A DNA stretch of 10,609 nt from a virus: the UHGV virus genome UHGV-0223590. One strand, 5' to 3'. The stretch's first letter is position 1. Every line of letters begins with the position of its first letter. Made by a program: the position numbers and the translations under genes. Below the pieces are notes generated by a model. That model saw only the letters and a list, made by a program, of their open reading frames with translations. It did not search any database and was not told the origin of the DNA. Positions 1-6,297 of the stretch are shown here, one piece after another.

Positions 1-119
1 GGTGGGTGTTAGGGGCACCCACCAGCCATCTGCTCATGCGTTGGGTTCACAAGCAAACCTCAGGCCCACTGCTTTGCGCAAAAGCAGAATGAGCCTATCA
101 GAGACAGGCTTAATGATCC

Positions 120-1169
120 ATGCTTAATACTGTAAAAATATCCAGTTGTGAGTTAATCAACGCCGACTGCCTGGAATTTATCCGGTCGTTACCCGAAAAT
201 TCTGTTGACCTGATAGTCACGGACCCGCCGTACTTTAAAGTGAAGCCTGAGGGCTGGGATAACCAGTGGAAGGGCGACGATGATTACCTGAAGTGGCTGG
301 ACCAGTGTCTGGCGCAGTTCTGGCGGGTGCTGAAACCTGCCGGAAGTCTTTACCTGTTCTGTGGTCATCGCCTGGCATCTGATATCGAAATCATGATGCG
401 TGAACGCTTCAGTGTGCTGAACCATATTATCTGGGCGAAGCCGTCCGGACGCTGGAACGGATGCAACAAGGAAAGCCTGCGGGCGTATTTCCCCGCCACA
501 GAGCGCATTCTGTTCGCGGAACATTATCAGGGGCCGTATCGTCCGAAAGATGCCGGGTATGCGGCGAAGGGCAGTGCACTGAAACAGCATGTGATGGCCC
601 CGCTGATTTCTTACTTTCGTGATGCGCGCGCGGCCCTGGGGATAACGGCAAAACAGATTGCAGATGCCACAGGAAAGAAAAACATGGTGTCGCACTGGTT
701 CAGTGCCAGTCAGTGGCAGCTACCGAACGAAAGCGATTATCTGAAATTACAGTCGCTGTTTGCCCGGGTGGCAGAAGAGAAACATCAGCGCGGTGAACTG
801 GAAAAGCCCCACCACCAGCTGGTGGATACGTATACGTCACTGAACCGGCAGTATGTGGAGCTGCAGAGTGAATATAAGCATCTGCGGCGGTATTTTGGTG
901 TGACGGCGCAGGTGCCGTACACGGATGTGTGGACACATAAACCGGTGCAGTTCTATCCCGGGAAACATCCGTGCGAAAAACCGGCAGAAATGCTGCAGCA
1001 GATAATCAGCGCAAGCAGTCGTCCGGGTGACCTGGTTGCAGATTTTTTTATGGGCTCAGGTTCAACGGTAAAAGCGGCACTGGCGCTCGGGCGTCGTGCG
1101 ATTGGCGTTGAACTGGAGACCGGACGTTTTGAGCAGACAGTCAGGGAAGTTCAGGATTTAATCGTTTGA
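120..1169 (+). CDS. DNA methyltransferase, beta-class (N6-adenine or N4-cytosine), phage-type orphan
   Basis: 349-aa ORF. DPPY (motif IV) near the N-terminus in ...LIVTDPPYF..., and F-x-G-S-G-S-T (motif I, AdoMet binding) near the C-terminus in ...DFFMGSGSTV.... The IV-before-I order is typical of beta-class amino-MTases. The ORF starts right after an in-frame stop at 114-116, so 120 is the only ATG start. Confidence 0.85.
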   Translation: MLNTVKISSCELINADCLEFIRSLPENSVDLIVTDPPYFKVKPEGWDNQWKGDDDYLKWLDQCLAQFWRVLKPAGSLYLFCGHRLASDIEIMMRERFSVLNHIIWAKPSGRWNGCNKESLRAYFPATERILFAEHYQGPYRPKDAGYAAKGSALKQHVMAPLISYFRDARAALGITAKQIADATGKKNMVSHWFSASQWQLPNESDYLKLQSLFARVAEEKHQRGELEKPHHQLVDTYTSLNRQYVELQSEYKHLRRYFGVTAQVPYTDVWTHKPVQFYPGKHPCEKPAEMLQQIISASSRPGDLVADFFMGSGSTVKAALALGRRAIGVELETGRFEQTVREVQDLIV

Positions 1170-1218: not shown

Positions 1219-1294
1219 GGCCCTTTAGCTCAGTGGTGAGAGCGAGCGACTCATAATCGCCAGGTCGCTGGTTCAAATCCAGCAAGGGCCACCA
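1219..1294 (+). tRNA. ileZ: tRNA-Ile2 (anticodon CAU, ileX/ileZ-like; formally Met by anticodon alone)
   Basis: 76 nt, GGCCCTTTAGCTCAGTGGTGAGAGCGAGCGACTCATAATCGCCAGGTCGCTGGTTCAAATCCAGCAAGGGCCACCA. Cloverleaf folds by hand: 7-bp acceptor stem GGCCCTT/AAGGGCC, anticodon loop ctCATaa, T-loop TTCAAAT, encoded CCA. Closely resembles E. coli ileX as I recall it. Gene symbol is by analogy to the ileZ-argN-argO array of Stx phages. Confidence 0.85.
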
Positions 1295-1303
1295 TATCAC
1301 ATA

Positions 1304-1380
1304 CCACCATTAGCTCATCGGGATAGAGCGCCAGCCTTCGAAGCTGGTTGCGCGGGGTTCGAGTTCTCGATGGCGGTCCA
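1304..1380 (+). tRNA. tRNA-Arg (anticodon UCG)
   Basis: 77 nt. D-stem GCTC/GAGC, perfect anticodon stem CCAGC/GCTGG, anticodon loop ctTCGaa, T-loop TTCGAGT, encoded CCA. The acceptor stem has one A-C mismatch and the T-stem has G-U pairs; the 5' boundary is +/- 2 nt. Confidence 0.7.
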
Positions 1381-1394
1381 TTTATCGGTATTCT

Positions 1395-1468
1395 GCGTTG
1401 TTAGCTCAGCCGGACAGAGCAATTGCCTTCTAAGCAGCTGTGGTTGCACTCCTGTTGTTTCTGGTGGT
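1395..1468 (+). pseudogene. Degenerate tRNA-Arg(UCU)-like sequence (argU-like 5' half, broken T-arm and acceptor 3' strand)
   Basis: GCGTTGTTAGCTCAGCCGGACAGAGCAATTGCCTTCTAAGCAGC gives acceptor 5' strand, D-arm and an anticodon arm with loop ctTCTaa (anticodon UCU). Downstream there is no T-stem (GGTTGCACTCCTG instead of GGTTCGAATCC with pairing flanks) and no complement to GCGTTGT. The 3' end is approximate. Confidence 0.4.
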
Positions 1469-1614
1469 GATGGTGGACTTCAGCAGCCGGATAATGTCGG
1501 TGCTGTCTGATGGTGTTTTGGTGGCGGGTGTGTGGTTGTTGCTTTCCCGTTGCTGAAAAAGAAAGCATCAGGCGATTAGCAGGGTATCAGTTACCCGTTG
1601 AAATTTTTAAATAC

Positions 1615-1834
1615 CTCACAATTCCACAGCTTGATGATTGTCTGGCTGCCGGAGAATTTGTTAAAAATTACATCGCATGGTGAATCCCCCTCAGCGGCGG
1701 GGCATCTGGCAAAGTGTATGATCCAGAGAACATGCAAATTCAGTAGACAGGCTGAATTTACCGGGAGTCCCCTGGCACCATGCGACAGACAGAAATTAGG
1801 CTATACTTCAGCCCCTCTCCGGAGGGGCTTTTCT
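1615..1834 (+). repeat. Repeat copy A (~220 bp), ends in terminator-like hairpin
   Basis: Aligns by eye with 2083-2301 over its length. Shared blocks include TTGTCTGGC, GTTAAAAA(T)T, GCATGGTGAATCCCCCT, a CCCCT-N6-AGGGG hairpin, CACCGGGAG, GGCACCATGC and the terminal AGCCCCTCTCCGGAGGGGCT. Confidence 0.6.
1810..1834 (+). terminator. Putative intrinsic terminator (8-bp GC-rich stem, 4-nt loop, TTTCT tail)
   Basis: AGCCCCTC/TCCG/GAGGGGCT is a perfect hairpin followed by TTTCT on the + strand. There is no U-run on the opposite strand. Confidence 0.5.
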
Positions 1835-2082
1835 GTGCAGGATGTGTCACAGTTTCCTGAATTCTGAGTACTGTCCTGTTACTCAGGGTGCTATATTTTC
1901 TGACGTGATGAAAGTCTGCCGGAAGGCGGAACGTATCGGAAATGACCCAGTAGAGAAAACGTTGACTCAGATACCGATGCTGAGTTACCGGGAAACCGGC
2001 ATCACATGACCGCTATCCTTCCAGGCTCGCTCCGGCGGGCCTTTTTACTGCAGAAAACAGTTTTCCCGTAAAATGCCACGTT

Positions 2083-2301
2083 GCTCATAATTCAGGCTGG
2101 CGATTATTGTCTGGCCGGCGGGAAGTTTGTTAAAAAATTTCGCATGGTGAATCCCCCTGTGCGGAGGGGTAATCAGCGAGTAGGTATATGGGATAATCGC
2201 GGATTCAGGTGCTGGTACTGAATTCACCGGGAGGCACCCGGCACCATGCAATGGCACATAGCGCCACTCTCCAGCCCCTCTCCGGAGGGGCTGTTTATAT
2301 T
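2083..2301 (+). repeat. Repeat copy B (~220 bp), diverged copy of 1615-1834
   Basis: Same block order as copy A, with substitutions and small indels. The terminal hairpin is identical (AGCCCCTC-TCCG-GAGGGGCT). Confidence 0.6.
2273..2301 (+). terminator. Putative intrinsic terminator (same hairpin, weaker GTTTATATT tail)
   Basis: Identical 8-bp stem and loop to 1810-1829, followed by GTTTATATT. Confidence 0.35.
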
Positions 2302-2907
2302 GATTTTGTCAGATGTGAGTAAACTCCTTATGGACTTTGTTGTTTTAGCCCATAAGGACATATTTGCAGAGTGCAACGGTTATTAAAGCATTCATTCAAT
2401 ACGTTATCTGTATTTGTAGGGCATTCCTGGCTGTTTTTGATTAAATTCCAGAATGTTTTATTGAATGGTACTACGTTGTAAATGGTTACAGGTAGCACTT
2501 TGTTATTGAGCATGATGCCTGTGTGAGTCAGTGTAAATATACTTTCAGGAGGTAAGAAAGCATCCGATTGATACCAGATTATTAATTTTATTTTACTCCA
2601 TATGACTGAAAAAGATATTCCGCATGATGGCTGGATAACTGTATCAATCACAATCCACTTCATTTAGTTTCCTTGTTTATGCCTTGCTGGTGATGTTCTG
2701 AAAAGTATAAATGATATTTTTGAATTAAACCATAGAGCAGAATTATTTTTCTGATGTTGTTTATTGTTTATTTAAATGCAGGGTGGTTTATATCTCGTCT
2801 TGTAGTTTATCCATGCATATCTGCTTGATGATGAGGTTTTTATTTAAGGTATGGTTTTGTGTTTTTTCTGTATTACATGTCAGGTATTTTAAAGAATCAT
2901 TTTTCAG

Positions 2908-4401
2908 ATGGTGGAAAGAACCATGGCATTTAAACACTATGATGTTGTCAGGGCGGCGTCGCCGTCAGATCTTGCGGAAAAGCTGACACATAAACTGAAA
3001 GAGGGCTGGCAGCCGTTTGGTAGTCCGGTGGCCATAACCCCTTATACCCTGATGCAGGCGATTGCAGCAGAAGGTGATGTGGTCGTCAGTGGTGCAACTG
3101 AGCCGGAGTGGTACTACGTCATCGTACTGGCCGGGCAATCCAATGCCATGGCTTACGGTGAAGGGCTTCCGCTTCCGGATTCATACGATGCGCCCCATCC
3201 GCGCATTAAGCAACTGGCCCGTCGTAACACAGTGACTCCCGGTGGTGAAGTATGCGTATTTAACGACATCATTCCTGCTGACCATTGTCTGCATGATGTT
3301 CAGGATATGAGTACGATTAATCATCCCCGGGCTGACCTGAGCAAAGGGCAGTACGGCTGTGTCGGACAGGGCTTACATATTGCCAAAAAACTGCTTCCGT
3401 ATATCCCTAATAACGCGGGGATCCTGCTGGTACCATGCTGTCGTGGTGGTTCGGCATTCACCCAGGGCACGGAGGGGACATTCAGCGAGTCCACGGGGGC
3501 CAGTCAGGATTCGGCTCGCTGGGGAGTGGGTAAGCCGTTATATCAGGATCTGCTTTTCCGCACGAAGGCAGCATTGCAGAAAAACCCGAAAAACGTTTTG
3601 CTGGCGATATGCTGGATGCAGGGGGAATTCGATATGACGAATGCCAGTTACGCCCAGCAGCCAGCAGCATTTCTTGCAATGGTACAGCAGTTCCGTGCTG
3701 ACCTTGCCGGGCTGGCGGCGCAGTGTCACGGTGGAAGTCCGGCATCAGTCCCCTGGATTTGTGGCGACACGACATACGCGTGGAAACAAGAACACGGTAC
3801 GCAATATGAAGTGGTATATGGTGCATATAAAGGTAAAGAATCCCAGCAGATTTATTTTGTTCCCTTTATGACCGATGGTAGCGGAGTTAATACACCGACA
3901 AACAACCCGTCAGAAGATCCTGATATTGCCGGGTCTGGTTATTACGGTTCGGCATCCCGAACGAACAAAAACTGGGTATCATCAAATCGCCCGACGCATT
4001 TCAGCTCATGGGCGCGTCGTGGCATTATTCCCGATCGTATGGCAACTGCTATTCTGAACGTAGCCGGTCGCACCTTAGCCTTCATTAGTGGTAAGGCACC
4101 GGAAATCAAACCCTCGCCCGGCGGCGACACGCCATCGGGGCCGTCTGAAGATGCATCCGTACGCACAATCTCCCTGTTGCCGACAGCCGGAGATGCTGCT
4201 GCGCAGGGCTGGAGCATTAAGAATGGCGGAATTCAGTTGTCAGATGGTGTATTTAAGATCACCAAGCAGAGCAATAAAACCTGGTCCCTGATGCATCCGG
4301 TGGATGACGCAGTCTCCCTGCTGACACGGGGTGGCAGACTGAGCTGTAAGTTTCGACTGTCAGGCGCACTGACCAACAACCAGTTCGGTCTGGGAATTTA
4401 G
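2908..4401 (+). CDS. nanS-p: Prophage-encoded NanS-p-like sialate O-acetylesterase (DUF1737-like N-terminal domain + SGNH/DUF303 esterase)
   Basis: 497-aa ORF. The N-terminus (MAFKHYDVVRAASPSDLAEKLTHKLKEGWQPFGSP...) matches the small DUF1737-type domain typical of these phage proteins. An SGNH block-I-like GQSNAMAYGEG follows. Sitting downstream of the late-region tRNA array is the canonical nanS-p position in Stx/lambdoid prophages. An alternative start at ATG 2923 (MAFKHYDV) is plausible. Confidence 0.8.
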   Translation: MVERTMAFKHYDVVRAASPSDLAEKLTHKLKEGWQPFGSPVAITPYTLMQAIAAEGDVVVSGATEPEWYYVIVLAGQSNAMAYGEGLPLPDSYDAPHPRIKQLARRNTVTPGGEVCVFNDIIPADHCLHDVQDMSTINHPRADLSKGQYGCVGQGLHIAKKLLPYIPNNAGILLVPCCRGGSAFTQGTEGTFSESTGASQDSARWGVGKPLYQDLLFRTKAALQKNPKNVLLAICWMQGEFDMTNASYAQQPAAFLAMVQQFRADLAGLAAQCHGGSPASVPWICGDTTYAWKQEHGTQYEVVYGAYKGKESQQIYFVPFMTDGSGVNTPTNNPSEDPDIAGSGYYGSASRTNKNWVSSNRPTHFSSWARRGIIPDRMATAILNVAGRTLAFISGKAPEIKPSPGGDTPSGPSEDASVRTISLLPTAGDAAAQGWSIKNGGIQLSDGVFKITKQSNKTWSLMHPVDDAVSLLTRGGRLSCKFRLSGALTNNQFGLGI

Positions 4402-4667: not shown

Positions 4668-5288
4668 ATGAAAGATCAAGATGTTAGGTTCGCGGTGCAT
4701 CATAAGCTTTTGAAAGAATCGCATTTAGATCCAGACTGCCTTGTGGTCGATGAATTTTCCATATCCCTTGGCGCCAGTAGAGCAGACATTGCTGTAATAA
4801 ATGGTGTTATACACGGGTACGAGCTCAAAAGTGAATATGACTCTTTGGAGCGTTTGCCTCTTCAAATCAAGCATTATTCTTCTGTAATGGACAAGGTTAC
4901 TCTTGTCGTAGCTGAGAAACACCTTGAGGGAGCATTAAAGTTAATTCCAGGTTGGTGGGGCGTTAAAACGGTTTCTGTTGGGCCAAAAGGCGCCATTCTT
5001 ATAAAGCACATGCGTGGAGAAAAGCTTAATCGAAACCATGACACATTGATGCTCGCTCAATTGCTTTGGAAAGATGAATGTATCGACGTACTTGAACGAT
5101 GGGGCTATTCCAAAGGAATCAAAAGCAAGCCCCGATTTGAGTTATGGAATATTATTGCGGAAAATATTCCAATAGCGAATCTCAGGCTTGAAGTCAGAAC
5201 AGCCTTAAAGAAACGCGTAGGCTGGAAAGTTAAGGCTTGGCAGGCTGAGTCTGCGCCAACCAATAAAGCTGTCTCACGACTAACGTAA
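4668..5288 (+). CDS. Hypothetical protein, 206 aa, with PD-(D/E)xK-like motif arrangement (putative nuclease)
   Basis: ORF with strong SD (AAGGAG, 7-nt spacer) and an upstream TATAAT. Carries ...VVDEFSI...SRADIAVING..HGYELKSEYD..., i.e. E29, D39, E52-x-K54 spaced like a restriction-endonuclease-fold core. Lies in AT-rich DNA unlike the flanking phage genes. Confidence 0.65.
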   Translation: MKDQDVRFAVHHKLLKESHLDPDCLVVDEFSISLGASRADIAVINGVIHGYELKSEYDSLERLPLQIKHYSSVMDKVTLVVAEKHLEGALKLIPGWWGVKTVSVGPKGAILIKHMRGEKLNRNHDTLMLAQLLWKDECIDVLERWGYSKGIKSKPRFELWNIIAENIPIANLRLEVRTALKKRVGWKVKAWQAESAPTNKAVSRLT

Positions 5289-6297
5289 TATGGTGCGTAT
5301 GTGCAACTTTACGCCATTCTTTAGAGCCGCCAGATTTGTTAGCGCCTAATGATCTTTGGTAAATGTAATCATCCCCCCAACTAAATTTGGAGCCAAAGAC
5401 TTGATACTCTGGCGAACTAACAAGGGTAGTACATAAGTTTTTAGTTTGGCCCCATCCATTTCCTTTAACTGCGGTACCTTTTACAAAGATCCATGAGGTA
5501 TCGTTCGAATATCTCACTGAGACATACTGAGACATGAAGCGTGGGTCTACGCTCGTAATGGTAGAGCTAGCGGTGGGATAATCACTAAAACTTGGCGTTC
5601 TTCCATTGCTAAAATTCTGTACTACGTACATCCAAAGATCGTATTCATGGCGCGGAATATGATGAACTTGATGTTGCGGTATCCCTGCCTGTGATGCCGG
5701 GTATGCGGTTGAAGATAAAATCAAGTTTCTCCACGGAGCTTGGCCTGATAATGTGTTGACCATGCTTAATGCTTGTTGTTTTAAACTATCAGTTGCGTTT
5801 TGAATATCTCCAAAATCAATGATTACATCAATTAAACTAGGATGAATATTTAAGTGGTTAACCAGACTTGTGAATTGGTGCCATGTCTGGGGGGTGATAG
5901 ATATAGCGAGCCCATTGATTAAGTTGCGTTGAACAGCATGTATATAGTTTGTTGAATATGCGGGAGAAACAACAGGGATAATTTCCTTACCATTTACTCT
6001 AGCATCTTGGATACACATATCTAGAGGATGATGGCGGCTCGAACCATGTTTATCTAAATATTTAACATCCAGCAAAACAGGACGATTGGCTTTCCAGGAT
6101 GCCGCAAGGTTAATACCGAAGTCAGATAAGTAAGAACTCAAACTCTTCTTGTAGCATTCGTTTTCATAATCCCAGTCTATGTCTGGAATGGTAATGATCG
6201 GAGTAAAACCAGAGAGCGTAGTTTGATCTAAAAGCATCAGAGATTCATATTCAGCAGGCTTCCATTTCAGCTGTGGATAATATTGATGTTGACTCAT
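5230..6297 (-). CDS. Hypothetical protein, 355 aa, partner of the 206-aa gene (convergent, 59-bp 3' overlap)
   Basis: Long minus-strand ORF with a strong SD (AAGGAG, 6 nt before ATG, seen as CTCCTT at 6303-6308 on +). AT-rich like its partner. No catalytic motif I can assign by eye. Confidence 0.65.
   Translation of the reverse strand: MSQHQYYPQLKWKPAEYESLMLLDQTTLSGFTPIITIPDIDWDYENECYKKSLSSYLSDFGINLAASWKANRPVLLDVKYLDKHGSSRHHPLDMCIQDARVNGKEIIPVVSPAYSTNYIHAVQRNLINGLAISITPQTWHQFTSLVNHLNIHPSLIDVIIDFGDIQNATDSLKQQALSMVNTLSGQAPWRNLILSSTAYPASQAGIPQHQVHHIPRHEYDLWMYVVQNFSNGRTPSFSDYPTASSTITSVDPRFMSQYVSVRYSNDTSWIFVKGTAVKGNGWGQTKNLCTTLVSSPEYQVFGSKFSWGDDYIYQRSLGANKSGGSKEWRKVAHTHHITLVVRQLYWLAQTQPAKP

What the first reader, a model, noticed from the sequence alone, without database searches (positions are those of the whole stretch)
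1395..1560. Third tRNA of the array is degenerate and followed by a GT-rich tract
The 5' half (acceptor strand, D-arm, anticodon arm with anticodon UCU) is recognisably argU-like. The T-arm and acceptor 3' strand cannot pair. Immediately downstream is a strongly GT-skewed stretch (TGGTGGTGATGGTGG...GGTGGCGGGTGTGTGGTTGTTG). Either the tRNA has decayed or its 3' half was displaced by an insertion or rearrangement.
Basis: seen in the sequence. Interest (0 to 1): 0.4.

Follow-up and report, generated by a model that had tools for sequence, protein, structure and literature searches.

The report
Deletion scar: half tRNA fused to tciB
The "degenerate third tRNA" is the first 42 bases of a prophage arginine tRNA gene (argO), joined by a 654-base deletion to the middle of its former downstream neighbour, the small membrane-protein gene tciB, whose Val/Leu/Gly codons make the GT-rich tract; it is an ordinary decay scar in an E. 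coli prophage.

Summary
Window 1395-1436 is 42/42 identical to the 5' part of the lambdoid-prophage tRNA-Arg(UCU) gene argO. The match stops inside the 3' strand of the anticodon stem. ARAGORN and Rfam find no tRNA there, only a 14.2-bit partial match to the D and anticodon arms.

The GT-rich tract (75% G+T, the highest in the window) is not a special element. It is the + strand coding sequence of tciB (Pfam DUF3927, a hydrophobic protein of about 54 aa), starting at its codon 8.

Prophages of E. coli E02 and ABU 83972 carry the intact order: methylase, ileZ, argN, argO, terminator, tciA (TerB family), tciB. The window is collinear with them on both sides and lacks exactly 654 bp. The missing stretch holds the argO 3' 35 nt, a 170-bp spacer with the terminator, all of tciA, and the first 21 nt of tciB. 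The join is blunt, with no microhomology.

The same junction occurs in 325 of 5426 complete E. coli genomes, in E. albertii, in 30 IMG/VR contigs and in four phage records. It sits behind different argN alleles. A minority of copies lack the 1-nt frameshift that the window's tciB remnant carries, so the frameshift came later.

Verdict: a non-functional deletion scar. It is ordinary and of low interest.

The parts
1219..1294 (+). ileZ, first tRNA of the prophage array (anticodon CAT). PGAP calls it tRNA-Ile and ARAGORN calls it tRNA-Met. Intact. Context only.
   Evidence: ARAGORN; Rfam tRNA 72.5 bits; RefSeq annotation.
1304..1380 (+). argN, tRNA-Arg (anticodon TCG). Detected as a tRNA, but with an A3.C70 acceptor-stem mismatch in this allele. 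Context only.
   Evidence: ARAGORN; Rfam 44.9 bits with non-canonical pairs flagged; other alleles have G at this position.
1395..1436 (+). argO remnant: the 5' 42 nt of tRNA-Arg(UCU). It holds the acceptor 5' strand, the D arm, the anticodon-stem 5' strand, the anticodon loop with TCT, and the first 3 nt of the stem's 3' strand.
   Evidence: 42/42 identical to intact argO in L007; alignment with Stx2-phage argO; only a 14.2-bit partial tRNA match covering model positions 10-42; no ARAGORN call.
1436..1437 (+). Deletion junction: argO nt 42 joined to tciB nt 22 (first base of codon 8). The join is blunt, with 0 nt of microhomology. 654 bp are missing relative to E. coli E02 and ABU 83972.
   Evidence: Window 1-1436 matches L007 843-2278 and window 1437-2169 matches L007 2933-3681; base-by-base walk to the junction.
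1437..1579 (+). tciB (DUF3927) remnant. It covers codon 8 onward to the original TAG stop at 1577-1579. This is the GT-rich tract.
   Evidence: 95% identical to tciB of phage JLK-2012; Pfam DUF3927 42.6 bits, profile positions 11-39 of 53; translation.
1440..1556 (+). 38-codon ORF that RefSeq/PGAP annotates as 'DUF3927 family protein' WP_000226111.1. Its GTG start is an internal Val codon of tciB. The ORF ends at a premature TGA created by the frameshift.
   Evidence: Annotation; translation VVALLLFLVVMVDFSSRIMSVLSDGVLVAGVWLLLSRC*.
1532..1533 (+). 1-nt deletion: GGGTGTGGTGG in intact alleles reads GGGTGTG-TGG here. It shifts the tciB C-terminus from ...VVVVAFPLLKKKASGD* to ...VWLLLSRC*. It arose after the 654-bp deletion.
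   Evidence: Alignment. Loci L033, L034, L038 and L042 carry the junction without this frameshift.
1645..1838 (+). STnc100-family sRNA copy 1, with its own terminator at 1810-1829. It is the first terminator-like site downstream of the tRNA array now that the argO terminator is deleted. Context only.
   Evidence: Rfam RF02076, 132.9 bits; terminator scan.

Best explanation
The feature is a deletion scar in the accessory ('moron') region of a lambdoid E. coli prophage. This region lies between the late regulatory genes and the sialate-esterase and lysis genes.

The ancestral order was DNA methylase, ileZ, argN, argO, intrinsic terminator, tciA (TerB family), tciB (DUF3927), STnc100. One illegitimate, blunt recombination event with no microhomology removed 654 bp. 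It ran from argO nucleotide 43 to tciB nucleotide 21. It left the 5' 42 nt of argO abutting tciB codon 8.

Shown consequences: tRNA-Arg(UCU) can no longer be made from this prophage, tciA is gone, and tciB has lost its start codon and N-terminus. Most copies of the tciB remnant, including this window, later acquired a 1-nt frameshift. That is what an unconstrained remnant would be expected to do.

Shown: the GT-rich tract is the coding-strand composition of a hydrophobic transmembrane peptide (GTN Val, CTG/TTG Leu, GGT Gly, TGG Trp, TTT/TTC Phe).

Inferred, not shown: because the argO terminator was deleted, transcripts of the tRNA array probably read through the scar to the STnc100 terminator, and the argO fragment is part of the argN 3' trailer rather than a processed RNA.

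The scar arose once. It has since been carried between prophage backbones by homologous recombination and between hosts by phage transfer.
For: 1. Collinearity. Window 1-1436 matches E. coli E02 locus L007 843-2278 at 95.5%, and window 1437-2169 matches L007 2933-3681. Exactly 654 bp of L007 (2279-2932) are unmatched.
2. Intact arrangement. L007 and ABU 83972 (L009) are annotated methyltransferase, tRNA-Ile, tRNA-Arg, tRNA-Arg, TerB family protein, DUF3927 protein. O157:H7 F8952 has the same tRNA-tciA-tciB order.
3. The argO fragment is 42/42 identical to intact argO.
4. The downstream tract matches tciB of phage JLK-2012 at 95%. It hits Pfam DUF3927 above the cut-off but only over profile positions 11-39 of 53.
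5. No tRNA is detected at the site, and the argO 3' half is not elsewhere in the window.
6. The junction 70-mer is present in 325 of 5426 complete E. coli genomes, in E. albertii NBRC 107761, in 30 IMG/VR contigs and in four phage records.
7. The identical junction lies behind at least three argN alleles, one of them a degenerate argN. This indicates one origin followed by recombinational spread.
8. Four junction-bearing loci lack the 1-nt frameshift, which orders the events.
9. The RNA folds are unremarkable: z = -1.02 for 1381-1644 and +0.78 for 1395-1475.
10. The same window carries a second deletion, of 2,276 bp, which removes the lysis cassette. This prophage is decaying by deletion.
Against: No intact tciB allele carrying the window's own variants was found. 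The best full-length match is 96.6%, so the direct parent is unsampled and the deletion is inferred from a related arrangement, not the identical one.

Six of the seven substitutions in the remnant relative to L007 are synonymous. This could hint at continuing selection on the ORF. It is equally explained by divergence between intact alleles before the deletion.

PGAP still calls a 38-aa DUF3927 protein at this position.

Readthrough transcription and lack of function are inferred. No expression data were available.
Confidence: 0.93

Rival explanations
1. The scar is still functional. The 38-codon DUF3927 ORF (GTG at 1440) would be translated as a small membrane peptide, with the argO 5' fragment serving as a structured leader. 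Alternatively, the retained D-arm and anticodon stem-loop would act as a small RNA or decoy.
For: PGAP annotates the ORF. It still scores 42.6 bits against DUF3927. Six of seven substitutions relative to an intact allele are synonymous. The junction persists in 325 genomes and in four phage records.
Against: The ORF has no ATG. The in-frame TAA at 1431-1433 (sequence) leaves only an internal Val GTG as a start. The closest Shine-Dalgarno-like hexamer (AAGCAG) ends 2 nt before that GTG. The N-terminal 7 to 10 residues are missing. Most copies are frameshifted at the C-terminus while a minority keep the original C-terminus, so that end is unconstrained. Other prophages carry independent tciB truncations at different points, so remnants are common by-products. 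The region has no unusual RNA structure.
Confidence: 0.06
2. An insertion, such as a mobile element or moron cassette, split argO and displaced its 3' half downstream.
For: The abrupt loss of identity at 1437 would look the same at the left edge of an insertion.
Against: The argO 3' half is absent from the whole window at up to 3 mismatches, including the 9 kb downstream. The sequence to the right of the break is the normal downstream neighbour tciB, minus its first 21 nt. Both flanks are collinear with the intact arrangement. No transposase or integrase gene is annotated between the tRNA array and the esterase gene. I did not run a repeat search for terminal repeats.
Confidence: 0.01
3. It is an attachment-site remnant: a partial tRNA copy left by integrase-mediated integration into a tRNA gene, like the pseudo-tRNAs ptwF and pawZ of K-12 (my own recollection of those examples).
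For: Integrases often cross over within or just 3' of the anticodon loop, which is close to where this break lies (established knowledge, not tested here).
Against: The fragment lies between the late regulatory genes and the esterase, lysis and packaging genes, not at a prophage end. It is the 5' part of the tRNA gene, whereas att duplications copy the 3' part (my own knowledge). No integrase gene is adjacent. The partner sequence is a coding gene interrupted mid-codon-series, not an attP core. A simple 654-bp deletion accounts for everything.
Confidence: 0.01
4. Gradual mutational decay of a once-complete tRNA gene in place.
For: The neighbouring argN shows point-mutation damage in some prophages.
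Against: The 5' 42 nt carry no mutation at all. Identity falls from 100% to none at a single position. The sequence beyond that position is 95% identical to a different gene.
Confidence: 0.005

Closest known systems
ileZ-argN-argO tRNA array of lambdoid and Stx-converting prophages (e.g. Stx2a_F765, Oslovirus PA2)
   Same: Same position downstream of the late regulatory genes and the same order. ileZ and argN are present. The fragment matches the first 42 nt of Stx2a_F765 argO with a single A/G difference at tRNA position 37.
   Different: The third gene is cut after position 41 and cannot form a T arm or acceptor stem. In Stx phages the stx genes follow argO. Here, as in ABU 83972-type prophages, the follower is tciA-tciB, which is deleted or truncated in the window.
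tciA-tciB module (TerB family plus DUF3927) of phage JLK-2012 and of E. coli prophages such as ABU 83972, E02 and O157:H7 F8952
   Same: Window 1437-1579 is homologous to tciB nt 22 to the stop codon (95% to JLK-2012). It is followed by the same downstream sequence.
   Different: tciA is entirely absent. tciB lacks its first 7 codons and its start codon. It also has a 1-nt frameshift that replaces the last 16 residues with 7 others.
Other tciB remnants at the same prophage position (mEp460_ev081 / FDAARGOS_536 type; FDAARGOS_1293 type)
   Same: 5'-truncated DUF3927 remnants lying immediately upstream of the STnc100-like element. PGAP also annotates them as 'DUF3927 family protein'.
   Different: The breakpoints and left partners differ. 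One type has intact argO plus about 500 bp of unrelated DNA. The other has no tRNAs at all. These are independent events, so the 5' side of tciB is a recurrent mosaic boundary.

Membership tests
Functional tRNA (Rfam RF00005; tRNA-Arg UCU, argO) | Complete cloverleaf (acceptor stem, D arm, anticodon arm, T arm) scoring at or above the family threshold | tested here: not met
   No ARAGORN call at 1395-1480. No Rfam match at gathering threshold. The best permissive match is 14.2 bits against a cut-off of 29, covering model positions 10-42 only.
Functional tRNA (Rfam RF00005; tRNA-Arg UCU, argO) | Sequence homology to argO over the 5' strand, D arm and anticodon loop with anticodon TCT | tested here: met
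   42/42 identical to intact argO of L007. Aligned with Stx2a_F765 argO.
Functional tRNA (Rfam RF00005; tRNA-Arg UCU, argO) | T arm and 3' acceptor strand present, adjacent or displaced | tested here: not met
   No match to the argO 3' 32 nt anywhere in the window at up to 3 mismatches. The only GGTTCGAATCC-like sites belong to ileZ and argN.
DUF3927 / TciB (Pfam PF13064) | Profile match above Pfam's gathering score | tested here: met
   42.6 bits against a cut-off of 25, E = 5.8e-11.
DUF3927 / TciB (Pfam PF13064) | Full-length coverage with its own start codon, as in the intact 54-aa proteins | tested here: not met
   Only profile positions 11-39 of 53 are matched, whereas intact L007 TciB matches 4-50. 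The first 21 nt are deleted. The C-terminus is frameshifted.
DUF3927 / TciB (Pfam PF13064) | Paired with an upstream, overlapping tciA (TerB family) gene | tested here: not met
   tciA lies within the 654 bp missing from the window.
Integration-site (att) tRNA duplication | A partial tRNA copy at the boundary of an integrated element, next to an integrase gene, duplicating the tRNA's 3' part | tested here: not met
   The fragment is the 5' part of the gene. It lies inside the prophage between the methylase gene and the esterase, lysis and terminase genes, with no integrase nearby.

The most novel reading that the evidence does not exclude
The chimeric argO'-'tciB transcript has acquired a use. 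Two forms are conceivable. The retained tRNA-Arg(UCU) anticodon stem-loop, transcribed as the argN 3' trailer, could act as a decoy for enzymes that recognise the tRNA-Arg anticodon loop, such as anticodon nucleases of the colicin D type. Or the 38-aa hydrophobic remnant could be translated as a new small membrane peptide. Nothing observed here favours either form over neutral persistence.
Probability: 0.05. Interest if true: 0.5.

Novelty: new member of a known kind. Interest (0 to 1): 0.08.

Why it matters
It matters little beyond annotation.

First, the tRNA fragment is not a tRNA gene, and prophages carrying it supply only two of the three accessory tRNAs. They have lost the AGA/AGG-decoding tRNA-Arg(UCU).

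Second, the 'DUF3927 family protein' that RefSeq annotates here (seen in every junction-bearing genome listed) is almost certainly a pseudogene fragment.

Third, the exact junction (GCCTTCTAAGCA|GCTGTGGTTGC) is a single-origin marker. It could be used to trace recombination and transfer of this prophage module among E. coli and E. albertii.

Fourth, the case is a reminder that strong G+T skew can simply be the coding strand of a Val/Leu/Gly-rich transmembrane peptide.

Tried and rejected
- Alternative tRNA fold using downstream sequence: rejected. ARAGORN finds nothing, Rfam gives only a partial 14.2-bit match, and the MFE folds have z = -1.02 and +0.78.
- Displaced 3' half (insertion model): rejected. 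No copy of the argO 3' half exists in the window.
- Minus-strand ORF 1401-1568 (55 aa, His/Gln-rich on my reading of the sequence), which I considered first because the complement is CA-rich: dropped. The + strand matches tciB/DUF3927.
- Microhomology or direct repeats at the deletion ends: none (0 nt) against four tciB alleles.
- Chi-site involvement: there is no GCTGGTGG in 1395-1560. The window's three Chi octamers all lie within 19-825, in or just upstream of the methylase gene. By direct reading, the tract holds only a 7/8 Chi-like TCTGGTGG at 1460-1467. I treat that as a by-product of Leu-Val-Val codons.
- Search for the direct intact parent allele, using a hybrid query of the L007 tciB 5' end plus the window remnant: the best full-length hit is 96.6%, so the parent was not found.
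- Literature: no paper in the library holds ileZ, argN and argO together. Searches for TciB and DUF3927 gave nothing relevant among the 10 papers listed. Papers on STnc100 and the Pas sRNAs gave context only.
- tRNAscan-SE itself is not available. ARAGORN and the Rfam tRNA covariance model were used in its place.

Full report
**1. What is in the sequence**

The window is the late-regulatory to packaging region of a lambdoid prophage of Escherichia coli. It is 99-100% identical to many complete E. coli chromosomes, for example strain DA33133.

The gene order on the + strand is:
- a DNA methyltransferase at 120-1169 (Pfam N6_N4_Mtase);
- tRNA ileZ (anticodon CAT) at 1219-1294;
- tRNA argN (anticodon TCG) at 1304-1380 (ARAGORN; Rfam tRNA 72.5 and 44.9 bits).

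No third tRNA is detected by ARAGORN or by Rfam at gathering threshold. A permissive Rfam search of 1381-1644 returns one sub-threshold tRNA match. It lies at 1404-1438, scores 14.2 bits against a cut-off of 29 (E = 2.9), and covers model positions 10-42 only, which are the D arm and anticodon arm.

The GT skew is also real. Positions 1437-1556 are 75% G+T, the highest of any 120-nt stretch in the window. GC skew is +0.41 and AT skew -0.65 at 1450-1549.

**2. Identity of the two halves**

Stx2-converting phages and many E. coli prophages carry ileZ-argN-argO at this position. Alignment shows that the window follows intact argO from its first base and then loses all similarity.

Against E. coli E02 (locus L007) the identical run is 42 nt, window 1395-1436, with the first mismatch at 1437. 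The break therefore falls after tRNA position 41, three bases into the 3' strand of the anticodon stem.

The sequence from 1437 onward matches tciB of phage JLK-2012 at 95%. RefSeq annotates it on the + strand as a 38-aa 'DUF3927 family protein' at window 1440-1556. Its translation is VVALLLFLVVMVDFSSRIMSVLSDGVLVAGVWLLLSRC*. It hits Pfam DUF3927 at 42.6 bits, but only over profile positions 11-39 of 53. An intact 54-aa TciB hits positions 4-50 at 71.7 bits.

The GT-richness is the codon make-up of this hydrophobic peptide: GTG/GTT Val, CTG/TTG Leu, GGT Gly, TGG Trp and TTT/TTC Phe. The GRAVY score is 1.85. Intact tciB alleles are also 61-67% G+T.

**3. What happened**

Prophages in E. coli E02 and ABU 83972 carry the complete arrangement: antiterminator, hypothetical protein, DNA methyltransferase, tRNA-Ile, tRNA-Arg, tRNA-Arg, TerB-family protein (tciA), DUF3927 protein (tciB), then a sialate esterase. 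O157:H7 F8952 has the same tRNA-tciA-tciB core.

BLAST of the window against L007 gives two collinear blocks. Window 1-1436 matches L007 843-2278 at 95.5%, and window 1437-2169 matches L007 2933-3681. Exactly L007 2279-2932 (654 bp) is unmatched. That interval contains:
- the argO 3' 35 nt;
- a 170-bp spacer with an intrinsic terminator (CCCGGCTCGCTTTTGCGGGCCTTTTTT);
- the 432-bp tciA gene;
- the first 21 nt of tciB.

Window base 1437 is the first base of tciB codon 8. The join is blunt. Neither the base after the argO breakpoint nor the base before the tciB breakpoint matches the other parent, in any of four tciB alleles examined. The argO 3' half is nowhere else in the window. This is a deletion, or an equivalent illegitimate recombination between two phages. 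It is not an insertion.

**4. History of the scar**

The 70-nt junction sequence is present in 325 of 5426 complete E. coli genomes. It is also in the type strain of E. albertii, in 30 IMG/VR viral contigs and in four deposited phage records named vB_EcoS-*.

The identical junction lies downstream of at least three different argN alleles. One of these is a version whose interior has been replaced and which is no longer recognised as a tRNA (L002, L040). The junction also lies in prophages with different upstream genes. This pattern points to one origin followed by spread through homologous recombination among mosaic lambdoid prophages.

Most copies, including the window, have a 1-nt deletion at 1532/1533 (GGGTGTG-TGG). 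It changes the TciB C-terminus and creates the TGA at 1554-1556. Four junction-bearing loci (L033, L034, L038, L042) keep the original frame. The frameshift therefore came after the big deletion, as expected for an unconstrained remnant.

Other prophages carry independent 5' truncations of tciB with different partners. The 5' side of tciB is thus a recurrent mosaic boundary.

**5. Function**

The best-supported reading is that 1395-1579 has no function of its own. The tRNA cannot fold. tciA is gone. The tciB remnant has no ATG: an in-frame TAA at 1431-1433 leaves only an internal Val GTG, with no properly spaced Shine-Dalgarno sequence (direct reading of the sequence). Its C-terminus is not conserved among junction-bearing copies. 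RNA folding shows nothing beyond shuffled controls.

Because the argO terminator is deleted, I infer that transcripts of the tRNA array now continue across the scar. They would run to the terminator of the first STnc100 copy at 1810-1829. This was not tested.

One caveat applies. Six of the seven substitutions between the remnant and the L007 allele are synonymous. I attribute this to divergence between intact alleles before the deletion, because the direct parent allele is not in the collection and the best full-length match is 96.6%. It nevertheless leaves a small probability that the ORF is still expressed.

**6. Comparison with known things, and verdict**

The feature is a truncated member of the well-known ileZ-argN-argO prophage tRNA array, fused to a truncated member of the tciA-tciB (TerB/DUF3927) module. 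It fails the defining tests of a tRNA and of a full-length DUF3927 protein. It also fails the tests of an att-site tRNA duplication, because it is the wrong half, in the wrong place, with no integrase.

This is a gene-remnant scar of a known kind and has low interest.

Noticed in passing
window 4398-4400 (junction); corresponds to L043 4405-6680: There is a second deletion in the same prophage. Relative to E. coli DA33133 the window lacks 2,276 bp. The missing stretch holds the 3' end of the SASA sialate-esterase gene (the window ORF 2908-4401 is 497 aa, against 618 aa for the DA33133 protein), the class II holin gene, ydfR, the lysozyme gene and the lysis-protein (Rz-like) gene. This prophage therefore lacks its lysis cassette and is probably defective.
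   Followed up: partly
window 1304-1380 (argN), base 1306 and its partner near 1371: The window's argN allele has A at acceptor-stem position 3 (CCACCAT...ATGGCGG), giving an A.C mismatch. Other junction-bearing loci have G (CCGCCAT). It also has a G.U pair in the T stem (GTTCTCG versus GTCCTCG). The Rfam score is only 44.9 bits and the mismatch is flagged. The second tRNA may be mildly impaired too.
   Followed up: partly
L002 about 5125-5200 and L005 1625-1700 (position of argN): In phages vB_EcoS-640R1 and mEp460_ev081 the argN slot keeps both acceptor-stem strands (CCGCCAT...ATGGCGGTCCA). Its interior is replaced by unrelated sequence, and ARAGORN no longer calls a tRNA. This is a second kind of tRNA wreck in the same array.
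   Followed up: no
window 1645-1838 and 2114-2302 (+): Two tandem copies of the STnc100 sRNA family (RF02076, 132.9 and 132.5 bits) lie about 275 bp apart, each with its own terminator hairpin GCCCCTCTCCGGAGGGGC. They are about 74% identical to each other. A 2026 preprint relates STnc100 to the PasD sRNAs that sit upstream of the sialate-esterase gene (10.64898/2026.05.13.724894).
   Followed up: partly
window 2023-2047 (+): A terminator-like hairpin (AGGCTCGCTCCGGCGGGCCTTTTT) closely resembles the terminator that follows argO, or the last tRNA, in intact arrays of Stx2 phages, JLK-2012 and L007. It sits between the two STnc100 copies with no tRNA before it. This suggests that the 1839-2113 segment comes from another array-bearing module.
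   Followed up: no
window 19-26 (-), 812-819 (-), 818-825 (+): Three exact Chi octamers (GCTGGTGG) lie within 19-825: two (812-819, 818-825) overlap head-to-head inside the methylase gene, and the third (19-26) is about 100 bp upstream of it. About 0.34 would be expected by chance, and 1 of 200 shuffles reached three.
   Followed up: no
window 4668-5288 (+) and 5230-6297 (-): A convergent, overlapping gene pair is inserted between the former lysis region and the terminase small-subunit gene. One is annotated 'sce7726 family protein' and the other 'beta family protein' (Pfam PF14350 Beta_protein, E = 8e-56). It looks like another accessory (moron) module. Its function was not examined.
   Followed up: no
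window 2328-2663 (-): An IraM-like anti-adapter gene, as annotated by RefSeq, lies on the opposite strand between the second STnc100 copy and the esterase gene. It has no Pfam hit.
   Followed up: no
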